Assembly: GCA_963677745.1 (NCBI GenBank)
Contig: OY782391.1
Location: forward strand, 992,001-1,056,000
Direction: 5' to 3'
From: Candidatus Altimarinota bacterium
GTDB taxonomy: Bacteria > Patescibacteriota > Gracilibacteria > UBA1369
DNA length: 64,000 nt
Made by a program: the position numbers and the translations under genes. The notes below the pieces were generated by a model that was given only the letters and a program-made list of their open reading frames with translations, ran no database searches and was not told where the DNA came from. Shown one piece after another: positions 59,007 through 62,549 of this stretch. The first letter of the stretch is position 1. Each line of letters starts with the position of its first letter.

Positions 59007-59119
59007 GATGAACGTTAAAAATATTACTGAAAATACTATAACCCGAAAGTACAAAACAATTCAAGAAGGTGTACACAGCAGTAATTTGCCTAAAAGAAAA
59101 TATTTGATAAGATACTTTG

Positions 59120-59506
59120 AAGCTTGGATTTAGGAAAAACAAAAACAAAACATACCTCCTACCAATTTGCTTCACCCGCCCCGCATTATGCCGGGCAACC
59201 CGACGGAGCTAGAAACCGTCGCGACAGAGGGAAGCCTCCAAAACAAAAATGCTCCTTAAAAAATAATTTACCCGAGTCAGAAGAAGTCATAAAAACTTCT
59301 GCCAACATCTCTTCCGACGCCAAACTTAAAAGATTGTATCTTTGCAGGGTTCCATGGAACACTCTCGGACAATCATCAATAGTTCACAGGGAAGAAAGTT
59401 TACGGCAACAAGTTAAAGAAAGCTTCCAACACTCATCCCGGTAAATTATTCCAGGGCAAACAGACACCTCATGGAACCCGACATCTAAAGTCGGGGTATT
59501 TCCATG
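59120..59506 (+). ncRNA. Candidate structured ncRNA 1 (unassigned family; strand uncertain)
   Basis: Promoter-like TTGCCT-16-TAAGAT at 59086-59113. Nested stems: TTGGA/TCCAA, TAGGA/TCCTA around an A-rich loop, GCTTC/GAAGC, GACGG/CCGTC, AATAATTTACC/GGTAAATTATT, CATGGAA-CCCGAC/GTCGGG-TTCCATG. Confidence 0.45.
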
Positions 59507-59578
59507 TTTTGACAAGAAGTCAAAAATCTTACAAAGTATATTTCACAACCATGACAGAGGGCTGTCCAGACTCGTTTC

Positions 59579-59606
59579 TTGATTAATAAATTCTATCAGT
59601 TATAAT
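59579..59606 (+). promoter_or_regulatory. sigma70-type promoter with no downstream ORF
   Basis: TTGATT-16 nt-TATAAT. Confidence 0.65.
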
Positions 59607-59610
59607 GTTA

Positions 59611-60072
59611 TGATTTTTCCAATAAAGAAAAATCGAAACCAAAGATCTTTCACAAAAAGAATTAGACCTATCGCCCCCCGGGGGCGGTAACGTGAAGATT
59701 GATGAGGCGTCAAAGCGGTTGCCTTTAAAACAAAAATAAAAAGGAAAAACAACGCCCTAGAACGTTTTGGCATCTCTCAATCTTTGCTGGGCGCTGGATA
59801 CTTGTCTCCGACCGGATTAGTATCCGTTCAAAGTTACTCGGTGGGGTACTTTAGCCTTTATGGCTTCTACCTTCACTACCGGCCTTTACTGGTTGGCGGG
59901 TGGTCCGTGGCAGGACTGGAAAAAACAGCCAAAGCCTAGGCATAGATTAGGACTGGTCAATCCACAAATCTCGAAAACAAAAACAAAATTGCTAGAGTTC
60001 TCACCAATATTTTATTTTTGAGGACCCATTAGCACAAGAGATTTGGAACCCCTACTTCGGTAGGGGTTTTTT
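59611..60072 (+). ncRNA. Candidate large structured ncRNA 2 (~460 nt, unassigned family)
   Basis: Bounded by a promoter and a terminator; no ORF >=60 aa; many helices with G-U pairs consistent with the + strand. Confidence 0.65.
60047..60072 (+). terminator. Intrinsic terminator with cUUCGg loop
   Basis: AACCCCTAC-TTCG-GTAGGGGTT-TTTT; U-tract on the + strand; overlaps the stop of the convergent gene. Confidence 0.85.
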
Positions 60073-60570
60073 AATGTAGGAAGTTGACTGGGTTATATGC
60101 AGATCTGTGTTTATTACCTCCGATATCGCCTTATCCAGGTATATCTCGCCCACCGCTTCCGGATATTTCTGACCGGGGACGTCTTTGTAATAGGCGGGTC
60201 TGGTCCATTTTTTAATTTTAGCTTTAAAATCTGCAATATCCAACACGCCCCGATTGTCGCTGCACATCAGCATCACAATAATCCAGCGGCGATATTCAAA
60301 AATGATCCGTTGGGGATCATCGATCGGCAGTTTTTCATATTCCCTGGAGCGGTCCGCCAGATAATTTAGGAGGTTCATCATGTAGGAATAGGCCTCCCTG
60401 GTGGGCTCCATATACAGGACTCGCAGGGGGTTTTTGAGATCTTTGCTGGAATCGGCAACATATGTAAATAAATGGTCATTACAGATGTCTTTGGGAGGCA
60501 GGGAAGCTTTTATTACTGGAAGATCAGCCACTTTTGGGTTTTGCTCATATCCGGACACTGGCAATTTCAT
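60052..60570 (-). CDS. Hypothetical protein
   Basis: 172-aa ORF with ATG in AT-rich context; no recognisable motif. Confidence 0.65.
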   Translation of the reverse strand: MKLPVSGYEQNPKVADLPVIKASLPPKDICNDHLFTYVADSSKDLKNPLRVLYMEPTREAYSYMMNLLNYLADRSREYEKLPIDDPQRIIFEYRRWIIVMLMCSDNRGVLDIADFKAKIKKWTRPAYYKDVPGQKYPEAVGEIYLDKAISEVINTDLHITQSTSYIKKPLPK

Positions 60571-60698: not shown

Positions 60699-62549
60699 AT
60701 GCTCGACCTGCCAAAAGACAATCCCAGGGAACTGCCCAGTGCCGAATTTGCTCCGGAAATTGAGCGTGAGGCCCAAATGGCAGTTTTGAGAAGTCAGCAG
60801 ATTGATGAGCGAATTCCGGTTCAGGGGTTTACGCTTGACGCCATGGAATCCAAAGATTTGGATGATGCCATTTGGCTTGAGCGGTCCAACGGAGAATGGA
60901 GAGTGTTGGTCACTATCAGCGACGTGGACGCCCTTGTTCCAATGGGCTCTCTGCTCGATCGCGAGGCTGTTACAAGGGTAACCAGTCATTATTTTCCTGA
61001 GAGAAGCAGGGACGGTAAGGTAGAGCCAAAATATGTTATCCCAATGCTTCCCACCATTCTTTCGGAAAAGCACCTTAGCCTTCAGGAAGGGGAGTCCCGT
61101 CTAACACTGACGGTTGAAATGCTTCTGACGGGAGATTTCCGGCCGATTTCGGCAGACATAAAACGTACCCGTCTTGTTTCCGCCAAAAAGCTGGGACTGA
61201 GCGAATATGGCGATCGTAAAATTATTGGAGATCCCGGCCTGCCTCTGCGGGATTATTATCATATGGCCAAGGGGTTAAACCACAAACGCTGGTCCGACCC
61301 CGGTTGGGCCTACCAGGAATTAAAGAACGGAATCAGCACCAATGAAGACGGTATGGTGAGGGAAGGAAGCCTGTCTGCTGCCAGTCTGATCGTACAGGAA
61401 TTCATGGTCTTGACCAATCAGGCCGTGGCAGAACTACTCAACAGAGAAAATTTAGCGGCTCCCTTTCGAAATCATTTGCCTGCCAGAAACTCTCCCCCGA
61501 CCAAAGCACAGATCAGGGCGGAAATTGAAAGAAACAGCGATTATCGCAAGCTGGTTGATGATTTACGGGCAACTTATCAGAAACTTTTGGGAAGCGCTTT
61601 GTACGAAGCTGCTCCGGCCGGTCATTTCGGCCTGGGGATACCTGCCTATACGCATTTTACTTCTCCCATCCGCCGCTATGCCGACCTGGTCATTCATCGT
61701 ATTGTAAAAGCCCACTTATCCGGAGCAAAGTCTCCTTATACTCCGGAAGAAATTCAGCAGCTTTGTCTTTATCTGAATAAGCGCAACCGTGACCTGGCCA
61801 CGATCAGGGCTCATCAGGAAAGAAGACATTCATTAAAAAACTACCGCCAATTCGGGCACCTGCTGCCCAAGGAAAAAGAAGACGGGCCGGATTATATGGA
61901 AAGCTTACTGACATATTTAAGAGACAATCGCATTGGCAATGCGTTCTTTGAGTACTCCTGCAGCGAAGGGTTCCTTATTCAACTTTCCTGCAAGGCCAGT
62001 GTGCGCTTTCAACGCATCAGACACGTGGTGGAAGTCACGGCCAGAGCTGCCTTACAGGACGTGAAAAACGAGGCTGCCCGTTTGTTACTGGAGAAAATCC
62101 AGGAATTGATGGAGGCAAACCCGCCGGAACAAAAGAAAAAAGATTTGAAGTATCAAAAATCGCCGGAATCTCCCGAAACCGGACCGGGTGTGGTTGCACG
62201 CCTCTATCAATACTGCGAAGAGCATGGTTTTCCGGTTCCCAGTATTTATTATGAATCCTGGAATGGCGGTCTCTTTTATAACAAAGAAACAGGGGAATAT
62301 TCGGTTGCCCGGGAACCGGGATGTGAAAAACCTCCGGATGGAGAAGAAATGGATCAAAATCTGGTTCCCATAGTTTGTCATTGCGATATCAGCGCATCTC
62401 TGACTATGGATGGATTTGGACGAAACCGCCAGACTGCCAAGGAAGAAGCCGCCAGGAAAATGCTGGACTATTTGCAGTCGGGCCAGCCCATTCCCAGGCA
62501 GTCTATTGTTCCACCGGCTCCTCCTTCCCGGCCGAAAAAAAACGATTAA
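60699..62549 (+). CDS. RNB-domain (RNase II/R family) exoribonuclease with two C-terminal dsRBD-like domains
   Basis: TLDAMESKDLDDA, ISDV, PMLP, VQEFM.LTN, HFGL, YTHFTSPIRRYADL.IHR; C-terminal LYQYCEEHGFPVP...GFGRNRQTAKEEAARKML. Confidence 0.88.
   Translation: MLDLPKDNPRELPSAEFAPEIEREAQMAVLRSQQIDERIPVQGFTLDAMESKDLDDAIWLERSNGEWRVLVTISDVDALVPMGSLLDREAVTRVTSHYFPERSRDGKVEPKYVIPMLPTILSEKHLSLQEGESRLTLTVEMLLTGDFRPISADIKRTRLVSAKKLGLSEYGDRKIIGDPGLPLRDYYHMAKGLNHKRWSDPGWAYQELKNGISTNEDGMVREGSLSAASLIVQEFMVLTNQAVAELLNRENLAAPFRNHLPARNSPPTKAQIRAEIERNSDYRKLVDDLRATYQKLLGSALYEAAPAGHFGLGIPAYTHFTSPIRRYADLVIHRIVKAHLSGAKSPYTPEEIQQLCLYLNKRNRDLATIRAHQERRHSLKNYRQFGHLLPKEKEDGPDYMESLLTYLRDNRIGNAFFEYSCSEGFLIQLSCKASVRFQRIRHVVEVTARAALQDVKNEAARLLLEKIQELMEANPPEQKKKDLKYQKSPESPETGPGVVARLYQYCEEHGFPVPSIYYESWNGGLFYNKETGEYSVAREPGCEKPPDGEEMDQNLVPIVCHCDISASLTMDGFGRNRQTAKEEAARKMLDYLQSGQPIPRQSIVPPAPPSRPKKND

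What the first reader, a model, noticed from the sequence alone, without database searches (positions are those of the whole stretch)
59579..60072. Promoter-to-terminator, ORF-free ~460-nt transcript with extensive multi-helix structure: candidate new large ncRNA
Seen in sequence: TTGATT-16-TATAAT at 59579-59606 points into a segment with no ORF >=60 aa, ending in a + strand cUUCGg terminator (60047-60072); the next gene is convergent. By-eye helices: TGATTTTTC/GAAAAATCG; CGCCCC/GGGGCG; GTAAC/GTTAC enclosing a long arm AAGATTGA..GAGGCGTCAAAGCG/CGTTTTGGCATCTC-TCAATCTT capped by CCTTT/AAAGG around an AAAACAAAAATAA loop; GGATACT/AGTATCC; CGGTGG/CTACCG with GGTA/TACC and AGCC/GGCT; GGTTG/CAGCC with TGGTCC/GGACTG; CAAATCTC/GAGATTTG with GTTCTCA/TGAGGAC. 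The many G-U pairs work only on the + strand. I could not match it by eye to tmRNA, RNase P, SRP or 6S. Inference: a standalone structured RNA of unknown function.
Basis: partly seen in the sequence, partly recalled or inferred. Interest (0 to 1): 0.85.

Follow-up and report, generated by a model that had tools for sequence, protein, structure and literature searches.

The report
New large structured RNA family
This is a real, independently transcribed, about 460-base folded RNA that matches no catalogued RNA family, is conserved across many relatives of a tiny-genome bacterium, and holds out an invariant A-rich strand that looks like the leaders in front of this organism's genes.

Summary
The finding holds. 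Window 59612-60074 (+) is an ORF-free unit with its own promoter (59579-59606) and a hairpin plus U-tract terminator. It folds far better than shuffles on the + strand (z -5.3, against -2.3 on the - strand). Rfam 15 gives no match.

Homologues occur in most families of the window's order and in one genome of another order. Many genomes carry two paralogues, each in its own conserved housekeeping neighbourhood.

Covariation supports:
- a long arm;
- a four-way junction closed by a long-range helix;
- an H-type pseudoknot;
- a loop-loop kissing contact;
- a 3' domain.

An invariant single strand, AAAACAAAAACAAAA (59974-59988), sits at different linkers in different families. The same word also stands just upstream of start codons in relatives. 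This genome's leaders are A-rich and G-poor, with almost no Shine-Dalgarno words.

It is not SRP RNA, tmRNA, 6S or RNase P RNA. The genome has no Hfq and no reverse transcriptase.

My best reading, which is inferred, is a trans-acting scaffold that displays a leader mimic to the 30S subunit, bS1 or a leader-binding protein. A second conserved non-coding unit lies just upstream (about 59115-59505).

The parts
59509..59523 (+). Inverted repeat TTGACAAGAAGTCAA about 55 bases upstream of the -35 box; a possible regulator site
   Evidence: Read. TTGAC-N5-GTCAA and the following CTTACAAAGTATATTT are kept in L002-L009 (alignment). Its function is not tested.
59579..59606 (+). Promoter: -35 TTGATT, 16-base spacer, -10 TATAAT
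   Evidence: 10 of 12 consensus positions. Both hexamers are conserved in homologues.
59612..60074 (+). The RNA itself, about 460 nt; both ends are inferred
   Evidence: nhmmer finds homologues in 19 of 19 loci brought in by the blastn search of relatives.
59611..59635 (+). 5' hairpin UGAUUUUUC/GAAAAAUCG
   Evidence: MFE. Kept with compensating changes in close relatives. Only 58.8% paired on the MAFFT alignment.
59643..59667 (+). Conserved A-rich linker AGAUCUUUCACAAAAAGAAUUAGAC
   Evidence: Conserved block (family f1 only).
59695..59784 (+). Long arm (59695-59717 pairs with 59763-59784). Its variable tip holds a near copy of the A-rich word (59727-59741) and the conserved AACGCCCUAGAAC.
   Evidence: 22 pairs, 88.6% paired, 12 with changes on both sides. 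Near copy found.
59785..59942 (+). Long-range helix P-LR (59785-88 and 59790-92 pair with 59934-36 and 59939-42); it closes the central four-way junction
   Evidence: outer part 92.8% paired, inner part 68.2%; 86.7%.
59795..59826 (+). Hairpin Pa, with loop word GACC at 59810-59813
   Evidence: 8 pairs, 7 with changes on both sides; 80.2% paired.
59837..59900 (+). Helix Px (59837-40 pairs with 59897-900), enclosing Pb (59841-76) and Pb2 (59879-84 pairs with 59891-96)
   Evidence: Px: 99.2% paired in 60 distinct sequences, and all 4 pairs covary; 100%. Pb2: 92%.
59902..59931 (+). H-type pseudoknot: S1 59902-06/59913-17; S2 UGGC 59908-11 / GCCA 59928-31; A-rich loop 3
   Evidence: S1: 97% paired, 4 of 5 pairs covary. 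S2: 98.7% paired. S2 variants seen: UGGU/ACCA, UGGA/UCCA, GGUU/AACC, CGGA/UCCG.
59950..59963 (+). Hairpin Pc, whose loop GGUC (59955-58) kisses the Pa loop GACC (59810-13)
   Evidence: kissing pairs 98.2% paired, Pc 98.2%; 43 of 59 sequences fully complementary, against a shuffled mean of 33.0 (maximum 40 in 2000 shuffles). Classes: GACC/GGUC 26, GACU/AGUC 13, GACG/CGUC 2.
59965..60045 (+). Outer 3' helix CAAAUCUC/GAGAUUUG (59965-72 pairs with 60038-45)
   Evidence: 97.3% paired. It becomes AAUUCC/GGAAUU in other genera.
59974..59988 (+). Invariant single strand AAAACAAAAACAAAA
   Evidence: Conserved in the 60-sequence alignment. Predicted unpaired probability is 0.99 here; the mean is 0.71 in 47 homologues against 0.42 for the whole RNA.
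59991..60033 (+). Hairpin Pd: lower stem 59991-95/60029-33, internal loop, upper stem 59997-60003/60019-25
   Evidence: 95.7% and 90.8% paired, with covariation.
60047..60074 (+). Terminator hairpin (60047-55 pairs with 60060-68, loop UUCG) plus U run
   Evidence: all 9 pairs change on both sides. Not flagged.

Best explanation
The locus encodes a trans-acting, independently transcribed RNA of about 460 nt that belongs to a previously uncatalogued family.

What is shown:
- It has its own promoter and terminator.
- It has a compact conserved fold: a long arm, a four-way junction closed by a long-range helix, an H-type pseudoknot, a Pa-Pc kissing loop and a 3' domain.
- It is inherited vertically in housekeeping neighbourhoods, often as two paralogues.
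- It carries an invariant, unpaired 15-base A/C strand.

What is inferred:
- The fold is a scaffold whose job is to hold that strand open.
- The strand copies the A-rich, G-free leaders that precede start codons in these organisms, which hardly use Shine-Dalgarno pairing.
- The RNA therefore acts as a leader (translation-initiation-region) mimic. It binds the 30S subunit, ribosomal protein bS1 or another leader-binding protein, and so titrates or positions that partner. This would resemble the way 6S RNA mimics a promoter, or the way CsrB and CrcZ mimic ribosome-binding-site words.
For: Real, structured and conserved:
- Folding z -5.26 on the + strand against -2.26 on the - strand.
- blastn hits in 29 of 61 genomes, G000 included. 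nhmmer hits in 19 of 19 loci.
- Model R1 hits 58 of 151 genomes of the order, G000 included: f1 21/22, f9 13/13, f17 19/21.
- Covariation in the 3' core: 91.8% of cells paired against 74.4% shuffled; 25 of 31 pairs change on both sides; slid controls 27-45%.
- Central domain: 88.5% against 73.9%; 20 of 24 pairs change on both sides.
- Whole RNA on a structure-blind alignment: 88.3% paired; 55 of 106 pairs change on both sides; slid controls 35-49%.
- Kissing-loop covariation.

Standalone:
- The downstream gene is convergent in 15 of 21 loci.

Housekeeping rather than mobile:
- Type A copies lie beside a DinG-like exonuclease-helicase in 10 of 12 loci, often with CarA.
- Type B copies lie beside MscS and F420-ligase-like genes in 8 of 8 loci.

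The displayed strand:
- The 15-mer is invariant and predicted unpaired.
- It sits after Pc in f1, f9 and f17, directly after P-LR in f6, and between Pa and Px in f2.

Leader likeness:
- Of 20 sites of the word fetched from families without a model hit, 5 are a -10 box, about 15 bases, the word, then AUG; 3 more have it slightly further from the AUG.
- In the own genome, only 23 of 514 unambiguous starts have GGAG, GAGG or AGGA at -20 to -4.
- G is 9-13% and A is 40-45% at -15 to -1.
- AACAAA, AAACAA, ACAAAA and AAAACA are enriched 3.7- to 5.3-fold in leaders.
- 17 of 65 near copies of the word lie within 40 nt upstream of a candidate start.
- A four-domain S1 protein is encoded.
- The exact word occurs 3 times on the + strand of the genome and never as its complement.
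Against: - No binding, expression level or phenotype was measured. The decoy step is inference only.
- The word is low in complexity. A-rich words are expected in intergenic DNA anyway, so the enrichment near starts is modest evidence. The built-in control is void, because the word reads the same backwards.
- Genes carrying the word in their leaders have no common theme, and the S1 gene's own leader lacks it.
- A sponge usually carries many sites. This RNA has one invariant copy plus one to three looser A-rich stretches.
- The elaborate conserved fold is more than a simple decoy would need, which leaves room for a catalytic or other RNP role.
- Alignments A2 and A4 were fitted to the models, so their counts lean towards the structure. 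The inner part of P-LR is only 68% paired.
Confidence: 0.4

Rival explanations
1. The RNA is a ribozyme or the scaffold of a ribonucleoprotein machine whose function lies in the folded core (junction, pseudoknot, kissing loop). The A-rich strand would then be only a flexible linker or a secondary contact.
For: - The most conserved nucleotides after the 15-mer lie in the pseudoknot and junction.
- The tertiary contacts covary.
- Size and complexity resemble the large bacterial RNAs of unknown function (from my own knowledge of OLE, GOLLD, ROOL and raiA; no call tested this).
- Two paralogues are kept over long times.
Against: - A mere linker would not keep an exact 15-base word across families while moving between linkers.
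- No dedicated protein gene travels with the RNA.
- No known catalytic motif was matched.
Confidence: 0.3
2. It is a sponge for an A-rich-binding global regulator, as CrcZ is for Hfq/Crc in Pseudomonas, but with a partner that is not the ribosome.
For: - The word fits the A-A-N type of repeat.
- Weak CrcZ matches fall on the A-rich parts (10.2 and 8.6 bits against a gathering score of 95).
- Further A-rich stretches occur in the 5' part and in the arm tip.
Against: - Hfq (PF17209) was found in 0 of 151 genomes of the order, while the control matched 5 named genomes.
- No candidate partner was identified.
- There is only one invariant copy of the word.
Confidence: 0.15
3. It is an antisense regulator that pairs through the A-rich strand with U/G-rich targets.
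For: The strand is accessible and invariant.
Against: The complement of the word is absent from the own genome: 0 exact matches and 2 with one mismatch.
Confidence: 0.04
4. It is a template RNA for a reverse transcriptase, telomerase-like or defence-RT-like. The supposed template would be a single strand bounded by a helix and lying next to a pseudoknot.
For: The layout (pseudoknot, then a helix-bounded single strand with a short repeat) resembles such RNAs in form.
Against: - RVT_1 (PF00078) gives no match in the 97.9%-complete, single-contig genome.
- No RT gene lies in any of the 21 neighbourhoods.
Confidence: 0.02
5. It is a strongly diverged SRP RNA (or tmRNA, 6S or RNase P RNA).
For: No SRP RNA model matches anywhere in the genome. 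By eye, the pseudoknot region recalled the SRP domain IV motif to me.
Against: - The genome has no Ffh M domain and no SRP54-type GTPase.
- The nucleotides that looked SRP-like covary as pseudoknot stem 1 and are not conserved.
- tmRNA (105.7 bits), RNase P RNA (170.5 bits) and a 6S-like locus (41.1 bits, under the 46.4 cut-off) lie elsewhere in the genome.
- ARAGORN finds nothing in the window.
Confidence: 0.02
6. It is a cis-acting leader or a small-protein mRNA.
For: In 6 of 21 loci the next ORF is on the same strand. In two f6 homologues an AUG precedes the word and opens short ORFs of 13 and 23 codons (read).
Against: - The downstream gene is convergent in 15 of 21 loci, including all 8 type B loci and the window.
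- A terminator follows the RNA.
- No start codon or reading frame is conserved in f1.
- The changes observed are of the RNA-pairing kind.
Confidence: 0.03

Closest known systems
Large structured bacterial RNAs of unknown or recently emerging function (OLE, GOLLD, ROOL, raiA, HEARO)
   Same: It is several hundred nucleotides long, has many covarying helices with tertiary contacts, is non-coding and is restricted to particular lineages.
   Different: None of these Rfam models matches. The lineage, fold and neighbourhood differ: housekeeping loci, no phage or transposon context and no dedicated protein neighbour. The comparison of kind rests on my own knowledge, not on a call.
CrcZ / CsrB-type protein-sequestering RNAs
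   Same: It displays, in single-stranded form, a word that also occurs in the translation-initiation regions of mRNAs.
   Different: There is one invariant copy rather than many. It has a large, rigid, conserved fold. Hfq was not found in 151 genomes, and the partner is unknown.
6S RNA
   Same: In the proposed logic only: an abundant stable RNA that mimics the nucleic-acid substrate of a core machine. Paralogue pairs occur in some bacteria (own knowledge).
   Different: RF00013 does not match here. The shape is not a rod with a central bubble. A 6S-like locus exists elsewhere in the genome.
SRP RNA (4.5S / large bacterial / archaeal)
   Same: It is a housekeeping-type RNA, and no SRP RNA can otherwise be found in this genome.
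   Different: The partner proteins are absent. The domain IV hairpin is absent, and its place is taken by a covarying pseudoknot.
Telomerase RNA and defence-RT template RNAs
   Same: A pseudoknot lies near a helix-bounded single strand that carries a short repeat.
   Different: No reverse transcriptase is found in the genome. The resemblance is of form only.

Membership tests
Any Rfam 15 family (4227 models, including OLE, GOLLD, ROOL, HEARO, raiA, tmRNA, RNase P, SRP, 6S and group I/II introns) | A match at or above the family's gathering score | tested here: not met
   0 matches in the whole window. (E up to 10): the best is 24 bits against a gathering score of 55; all matches are chance-level.
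SRP RNA | Domain IV hairpin with a conserved symmetric loop and tetraloop | tested here: not met
   The candidate nucleotides vary and covary as pseudoknot stem 1. RF00169, RF01854 and RF01857 find nothing in the genome.
SRP RNA | Partner protein Ffh (M domain plus SRP54 GTPase) encoded in the genome | tested here: not met
   PF02978: 0 matches. PF00448: only a 15.8-bit P-loop match. No DTAGR motif lies in a real ORF. In the 60 relatives, only partial P-loop matches of 23.6 bits or less were found.
tmRNA | tRNA-like domain and tag reading frame | tested here: not met
   ARAGORN finds none in the window. The genome's tmRNA is at C1:701797-702237, 105.7 bits.
6S RNA | Match to RF00013; a rod with a central bubble | tested here: not met
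   No hit in the window. The best genome hit lies elsewhere (41.1 bits). The fold here is a branched junction with a pseudoknot.
RNase P RNA | Match to RF00010 | tested here: not met
   The genome's RNase P RNA is at C1:405247-405740, 170.5 bits. Nothing matches here.
CrcZ-type Hfq sponge | Several A-rich Hfq-binding words, and Hfq present | tested here: not met
   One invariant word plus looser copies. Hfq found in 0 of 151 genomes. CrcZ model scores 10.2 bits against a gathering score of 95.
RT template RNA (telomerase-like, retron, DRT) | A reverse transcriptase encoded, usually adjacent | tested here: not met
   PF00078 finds 0 matches in the genome. None of the Pfam-scanned neighbours is an RT.
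Riboswitch or cis-regulatory leader | A conserved downstream gene on the same strand | tested here: not met
   The downstream gene is convergent in 15 of 21 loci, and a terminator follows the RNA.
New family defined here | Pseudoknot S1/S2 followed by CCAAAG, the Pa(GAC)-Pc(GUC) kissing loop, helix Px, and the AAAACAAAAACAAAA strand | tested here: met
   Divergent members in f6, f2 and another order keep these features.

The most novel reading that the evidence does not exclude
A lineage-wide pair of housekeeping RNAs acts as a structured mimic of the Shine-Dalgarno-less mRNA leader. On this reading the RNA docks on the small ribosomal subunit, or on bS1, and sets how much initiation capacity is free. 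It would be a counterpart for translation of what 6S RNA is for transcription, found in bacteria that have also lost the signal recognition particle.
Probability: 0.2. Interest if true: 0.9.

Novelty: categorically new. Interest (0 to 1): 0.8.

Why it matters
New large, intricately folded bacterial RNAs are rare. Each one found so far has pointed to unexpected biology.

This one is well suited to follow-up:
- It has strong covariation, a pseudoknot and a kissing loop, which makes it a good target for structure work.
- It comes from poorly understood small-genome bacteria that lack SRP and hardly use Shine-Dalgarno pairing.
- It carries an invariant word shared with mRNA leaders, which gives a concrete hypothesis about translation control that can be tested at the bench.

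Independently of function, the alignments and models made here would let annotators label a gap of up to 1 kb in many genomes that is empty at present.

Tried and rejected
- **SRP RNA idea.** It was raised because no SRP RNA model matches the genome. I dropped it when Ffh and FtsY proved absent and the look-alike nucleotides turned out to covary as a pseudoknot stem.
- **Hfq sponge.** Dropped: Hfq found in 0 of 151 genomes.
- **RT template.** Dropped.
- **Antisense action.** The complement of the word is absent from the genome.
- **Dedicated neighbour protein.** None found; the neighbours are ordinary housekeeping genes.
- **Common theme among genes whose leaders carry the word.** None seen, and the S1 gene's leader lacks it.
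- **Distribution beyond the order.**
  - Model R2 on 151 genomes of the class matched 11. All were in the own order except G194.
  - A pattern search of 401 class genomes matched 21. The matches outside the order look like chance, and the pattern missed the window's own RNA because its gap is one base too long.
  - R3 sees the f6 and f2 homologues only at 19.3 and 11.5 bits. 'Not found' outside the order therefore says little.
- **Control column.** It is void, because the word is the same when read backwards.
- **RNA-library evidence.** It is contigs only: one 227-nt contig and one 167-nt contig from relatives, with no ends, strand or level. The flanks without cover prove nothing.
- **Terminator scan.** It did not flag the terminator.
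- **Literature.** The listings show no description of this RNA. Supplements were not available and could hold motif lists that I could not see.

Full report
**The observation.**
- The window has a gap of about 1 kb (59055-60051) between two minus-strand genes.
- Within it, on the + strand, TTGATT-16-TATAAT at 59579-59606 is the only promoter-like site (10 of 12 positions).
- No ORF reaches 60 aa.
- The hairpin 60047-60068 with a UUCG loop is followed by a U run.
- The next gene, 60052-60570, is convergent.
- The 466-nt + strand folds to -151.5 kcal/mol against -117.7 +/- 6.4 for dinucleotide shuffles (z -5.26, 0 of 100 as good). The opposite strand gives z -2.26.
- Rfam 15 gives nothing at gathering score in the whole window and only chance-level hits at E up to 10.
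- ARAGORN finds no tRNA or tmRNA.

**Homologues.**
- The window lies in a single-contig genome of 1.336 Mb, 97.9% complete, and the RNA is single-copy there.
- blastn finds the stretch in 29 of 61 related genomes, G000 included. nhmmer finds near full-length homologues in all 19 loci fetched.
- In the alignment the -35 and -10 boxes are kept, conservation starts right after them, and the terminator stem changes by compensating pairs.
- A covariance model of the 3' core (R1) matches 58 of 151 genomes of the order, G000 included: f1 21/22, f9 13/13, f17 19/21, f18 2/3, f14 1/1, f16 1/1. It matches none in f6, f15, f4, f19, f13 or f3.
- Those gaps are partly a limit of the model. Sites of the A-rich word fetched from such families revealed divergent homologues in f6 (L098, L104, L106) and f2 (L114, L115) with the same parts. 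A broader model gave weak hits in f15 and f19 and two convincing copies in one genome of another order, G194.
- Beyond that, nothing was found in the class genomes sampled. That is weak evidence, given how little the models see.

**Structure.**
- On a 60-sequence model-guided alignment of the 3' core, 91.8% of cells pair (shuffled 74.4%, 0 of 500 shuffles as high). 25 of 31 pairs change on both sides, and slid controls give 27-45%.
- On a 61-sequence alignment of the central domain, 88.5% pair (shuffled 73.9%) and 20 of 24 pairs change on both sides.
- Those alignments lean towards the models, so I repeated the count on a structure-blind MAFFT alignment of 14 full-length RNAs. My model gives 88.3% paired, 55 of 106 pairs changing on both sides, and slid controls of 35-49%.
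- The resulting map, from 5' to 3':
  - a 5' hairpin;
  - an A-rich linker;
  - a lineage-specific hairpin;
  - a 22-bp long arm with a variable tip;
  - a long-range helix P-LR (59785-92 with 59934-42) that closes a junction;
  - inside that junction, hairpin Pa, helix Px with Pb and Pb2, and an H-type pseudoknot (S1 59902-06/59913-17; S2 59908-11/59928-31; A-rich third loop);
  - hairpin Pc;
  - an outer helix (59965-72 with 60038-45) that encloses the single-stranded word 59974-59988 and hairpin Pd;
  - the terminator.
- The Pa loop (GACC, 59810-13) and the Pc loop (GGUC, 59955-58) covary: GACC/GGUC 26, GACU/AGUC 13, GACG/CGUC 2. By eye there are also AACC/GGUU and GAUU/AAUC. In all, 43 of 59 sequences are fully complementary against a shuffled mean of 33.0 (maximum 40 of 2000). 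Five GACU/CGUC cases break the last pair.
- The inner half of P-LR is the weakest element, at 68% paired.

**Genomic setting.**
- Many genomes hold two copies.
- In 20 ten-kilobase neighbourhoods the copies fall into two types.
  - Type A lies beside a DinG-like exonuclease-helicase (10 loci across f1, f9 and f17), often with CarA and an S-layer-homology protein.
  - Type B lies beside MscS channels, an F420-ligase-like protein, PurN, LspA and AroE (8 loci in f1 and f9).
- These are housekeeping neighbourhoods. No reverse transcriptase, transposase or phage gene was seen among the neighbours I scanned with Pfam.
- The downstream gene is convergent in 15 of 21 loci.
- The window's own flanks are a holin-superfamily-IV membrane protein, two proteins without a Pfam family, and an RNB-domain (RNase II/R) protein. 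This arrangement is shared only with close relatives.

**The A-rich word.**
- AAAACAAAAACAAAA is the most conserved element outside the pseudoknot.
- It is predicted unpaired: 0.99 in the window, and a mean of 0.71 against 0.42 for whole RNAs in 47 homologues.
- It occupies different linkers in different families.
- The exact word occurs in 117 of 151 genomes of the order (that call's control is void).
- Of 20 sites fetched from families without a model hit:
  - 5 were divergent copies of this RNA;
  - 8 were short 5' leaders in which the word ends at, or a few bases before, a start codon;
  - the rest lay inside coding sequence or were unclear.
- In the own genome, translation starts look Shine-Dalgarno-poor. 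Only 23 of 514 unambiguous starts have an SD-like word, G is 9-13% at -15 to -1, and sub-words of the 15-mer are enriched 3.4- to 5.3-fold in leaders. Yet the 16S 3' end keeps the anti-SD sequence.
- A protein with four S1 domains is encoded.

**What it is not.**
- RNase P RNA, tmRNA and a 6S-like locus lie elsewhere in the genome.
- No SRP RNA is found, but neither are Ffh or FtsY, in this genome or in 60 relatives.
  - In one search, 23 of 61 genomes have weak matches and 4 scrape the cut-off. All cover only the P-loop end of the domain.
- A passage of PMC8080830 says two SRP subunits are absent in many such bacteria, so that loss is already known.
- Hfq is absent in 151 genomes and RVT_1 is absent in the genome.
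- The complement of the word does not occur in the genome.

**Expression.**
- Only assembled contigs were available.
- A sediment metatranscriptome holds a 227-nt contig on 59804-60020 with 11 differences. A soil oligo-dT library holds a 167-nt contig on 59810-59965.
- Both are confined to the RNA core and both come from relatives. Two DNA-type runs carry the whole stretch unchanged and may be its source.
- This is a weak hint of transcription, not proof.

**Interpretation.**
- Shown: a new, conserved RNA family with a complex fold and its own transcription signals.
- Inferred: the fold presents a leader-like strand to the translation-initiation machinery or to another leader-binding protein (confidence about 0.4).
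- Main rival: the folded core itself is the active part of an RNP or ribozyme (about 0.3).

**Literature.**
- Six searches (listings only) turned up no description of this RNA.
- I read passages of two papers, PMC8080830 and PMC9297842.
- The latter notes that Peregrinibacteria, Gracilibacteria and Absconditabacteria often lack bS21 and bL33.

Noticed in passing
window 59115-59505 (+): There is a second conserved non-coding unit directly upstream, on the same strand.
- nhmmer finds it in 8 loci, L002-L009, with E from 1.6e-77 to 5e-6.
- No reading frame is kept: the longest ORFs are 40-107 aa and lie in different frames.
- It has a conserved promoter-like TAATTTGC...TATTTGATAAGAT and a 5' GGAAAAACAAAAAC, which includes the exact 15-mer at 59136.
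- It has a covarying hairpin (GGGUUCCAUGGAACAC in the window) and a covarying terminator-like hairpin at 59478-59503.
- Folding z is -2.9, and Rfam gives no match at E up to 1.
   Followed up: partly
window 59509-59523: The inverted repeat TTGACAAGAAGTCAA and the adjacent CTTACAAAGTATATTT lie between the two RNA units and are conserved in relatives. This may be a regulator binding site for the downstream RNA promoter.
   Followed up: no
whole genome G000 and 60 relatives: No Ffh M domain, no SRP54-type GTPase (neither Ffh nor FtsY) and no SRP RNA were detected. A passage of PMC8080830 says two SRP subunits are absent in many such bacteria, so this is known in outline.
   Followed up: partly
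whole genome G000: Leaders are A-rich and G-poor, and SD-like words stand before only 23 of 514 clear starts. The 16S 3' end nevertheless keeps the anti-SD sequence.
   Followed up: partly
G051:C2 49400-52258 and G063:C1 90658-93532: In two f17 genomes, two copies of the RNA lie in tandem about 2.7 kb apart. Several f17 copies carry the exact 15-mer a second time about 200 nt upstream of the core.
   Followed up: no
G000:C1:602254-602414 (-): A 6S-like match scores 41.1 bits, under the 46.4-bit gathering score. It is probably this genome's 6S RNA.
   Followed up: no
window 60699-62549 (+): An RNB-domain exoribonuclease (RNase II/R type) with a weak C-terminal double-stranded-RNA-binding match lies next to the RNA. 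It is found there only in close relatives.
   Followed up: no
L013, L014, L015 (relatives), tip of the long arm: Three genera carry an insertion of about 100-150 nt at the tip of the long arm. Three to four genera have an extra small hairpin between the outer helix and the 15-mer.
   Followed up: no
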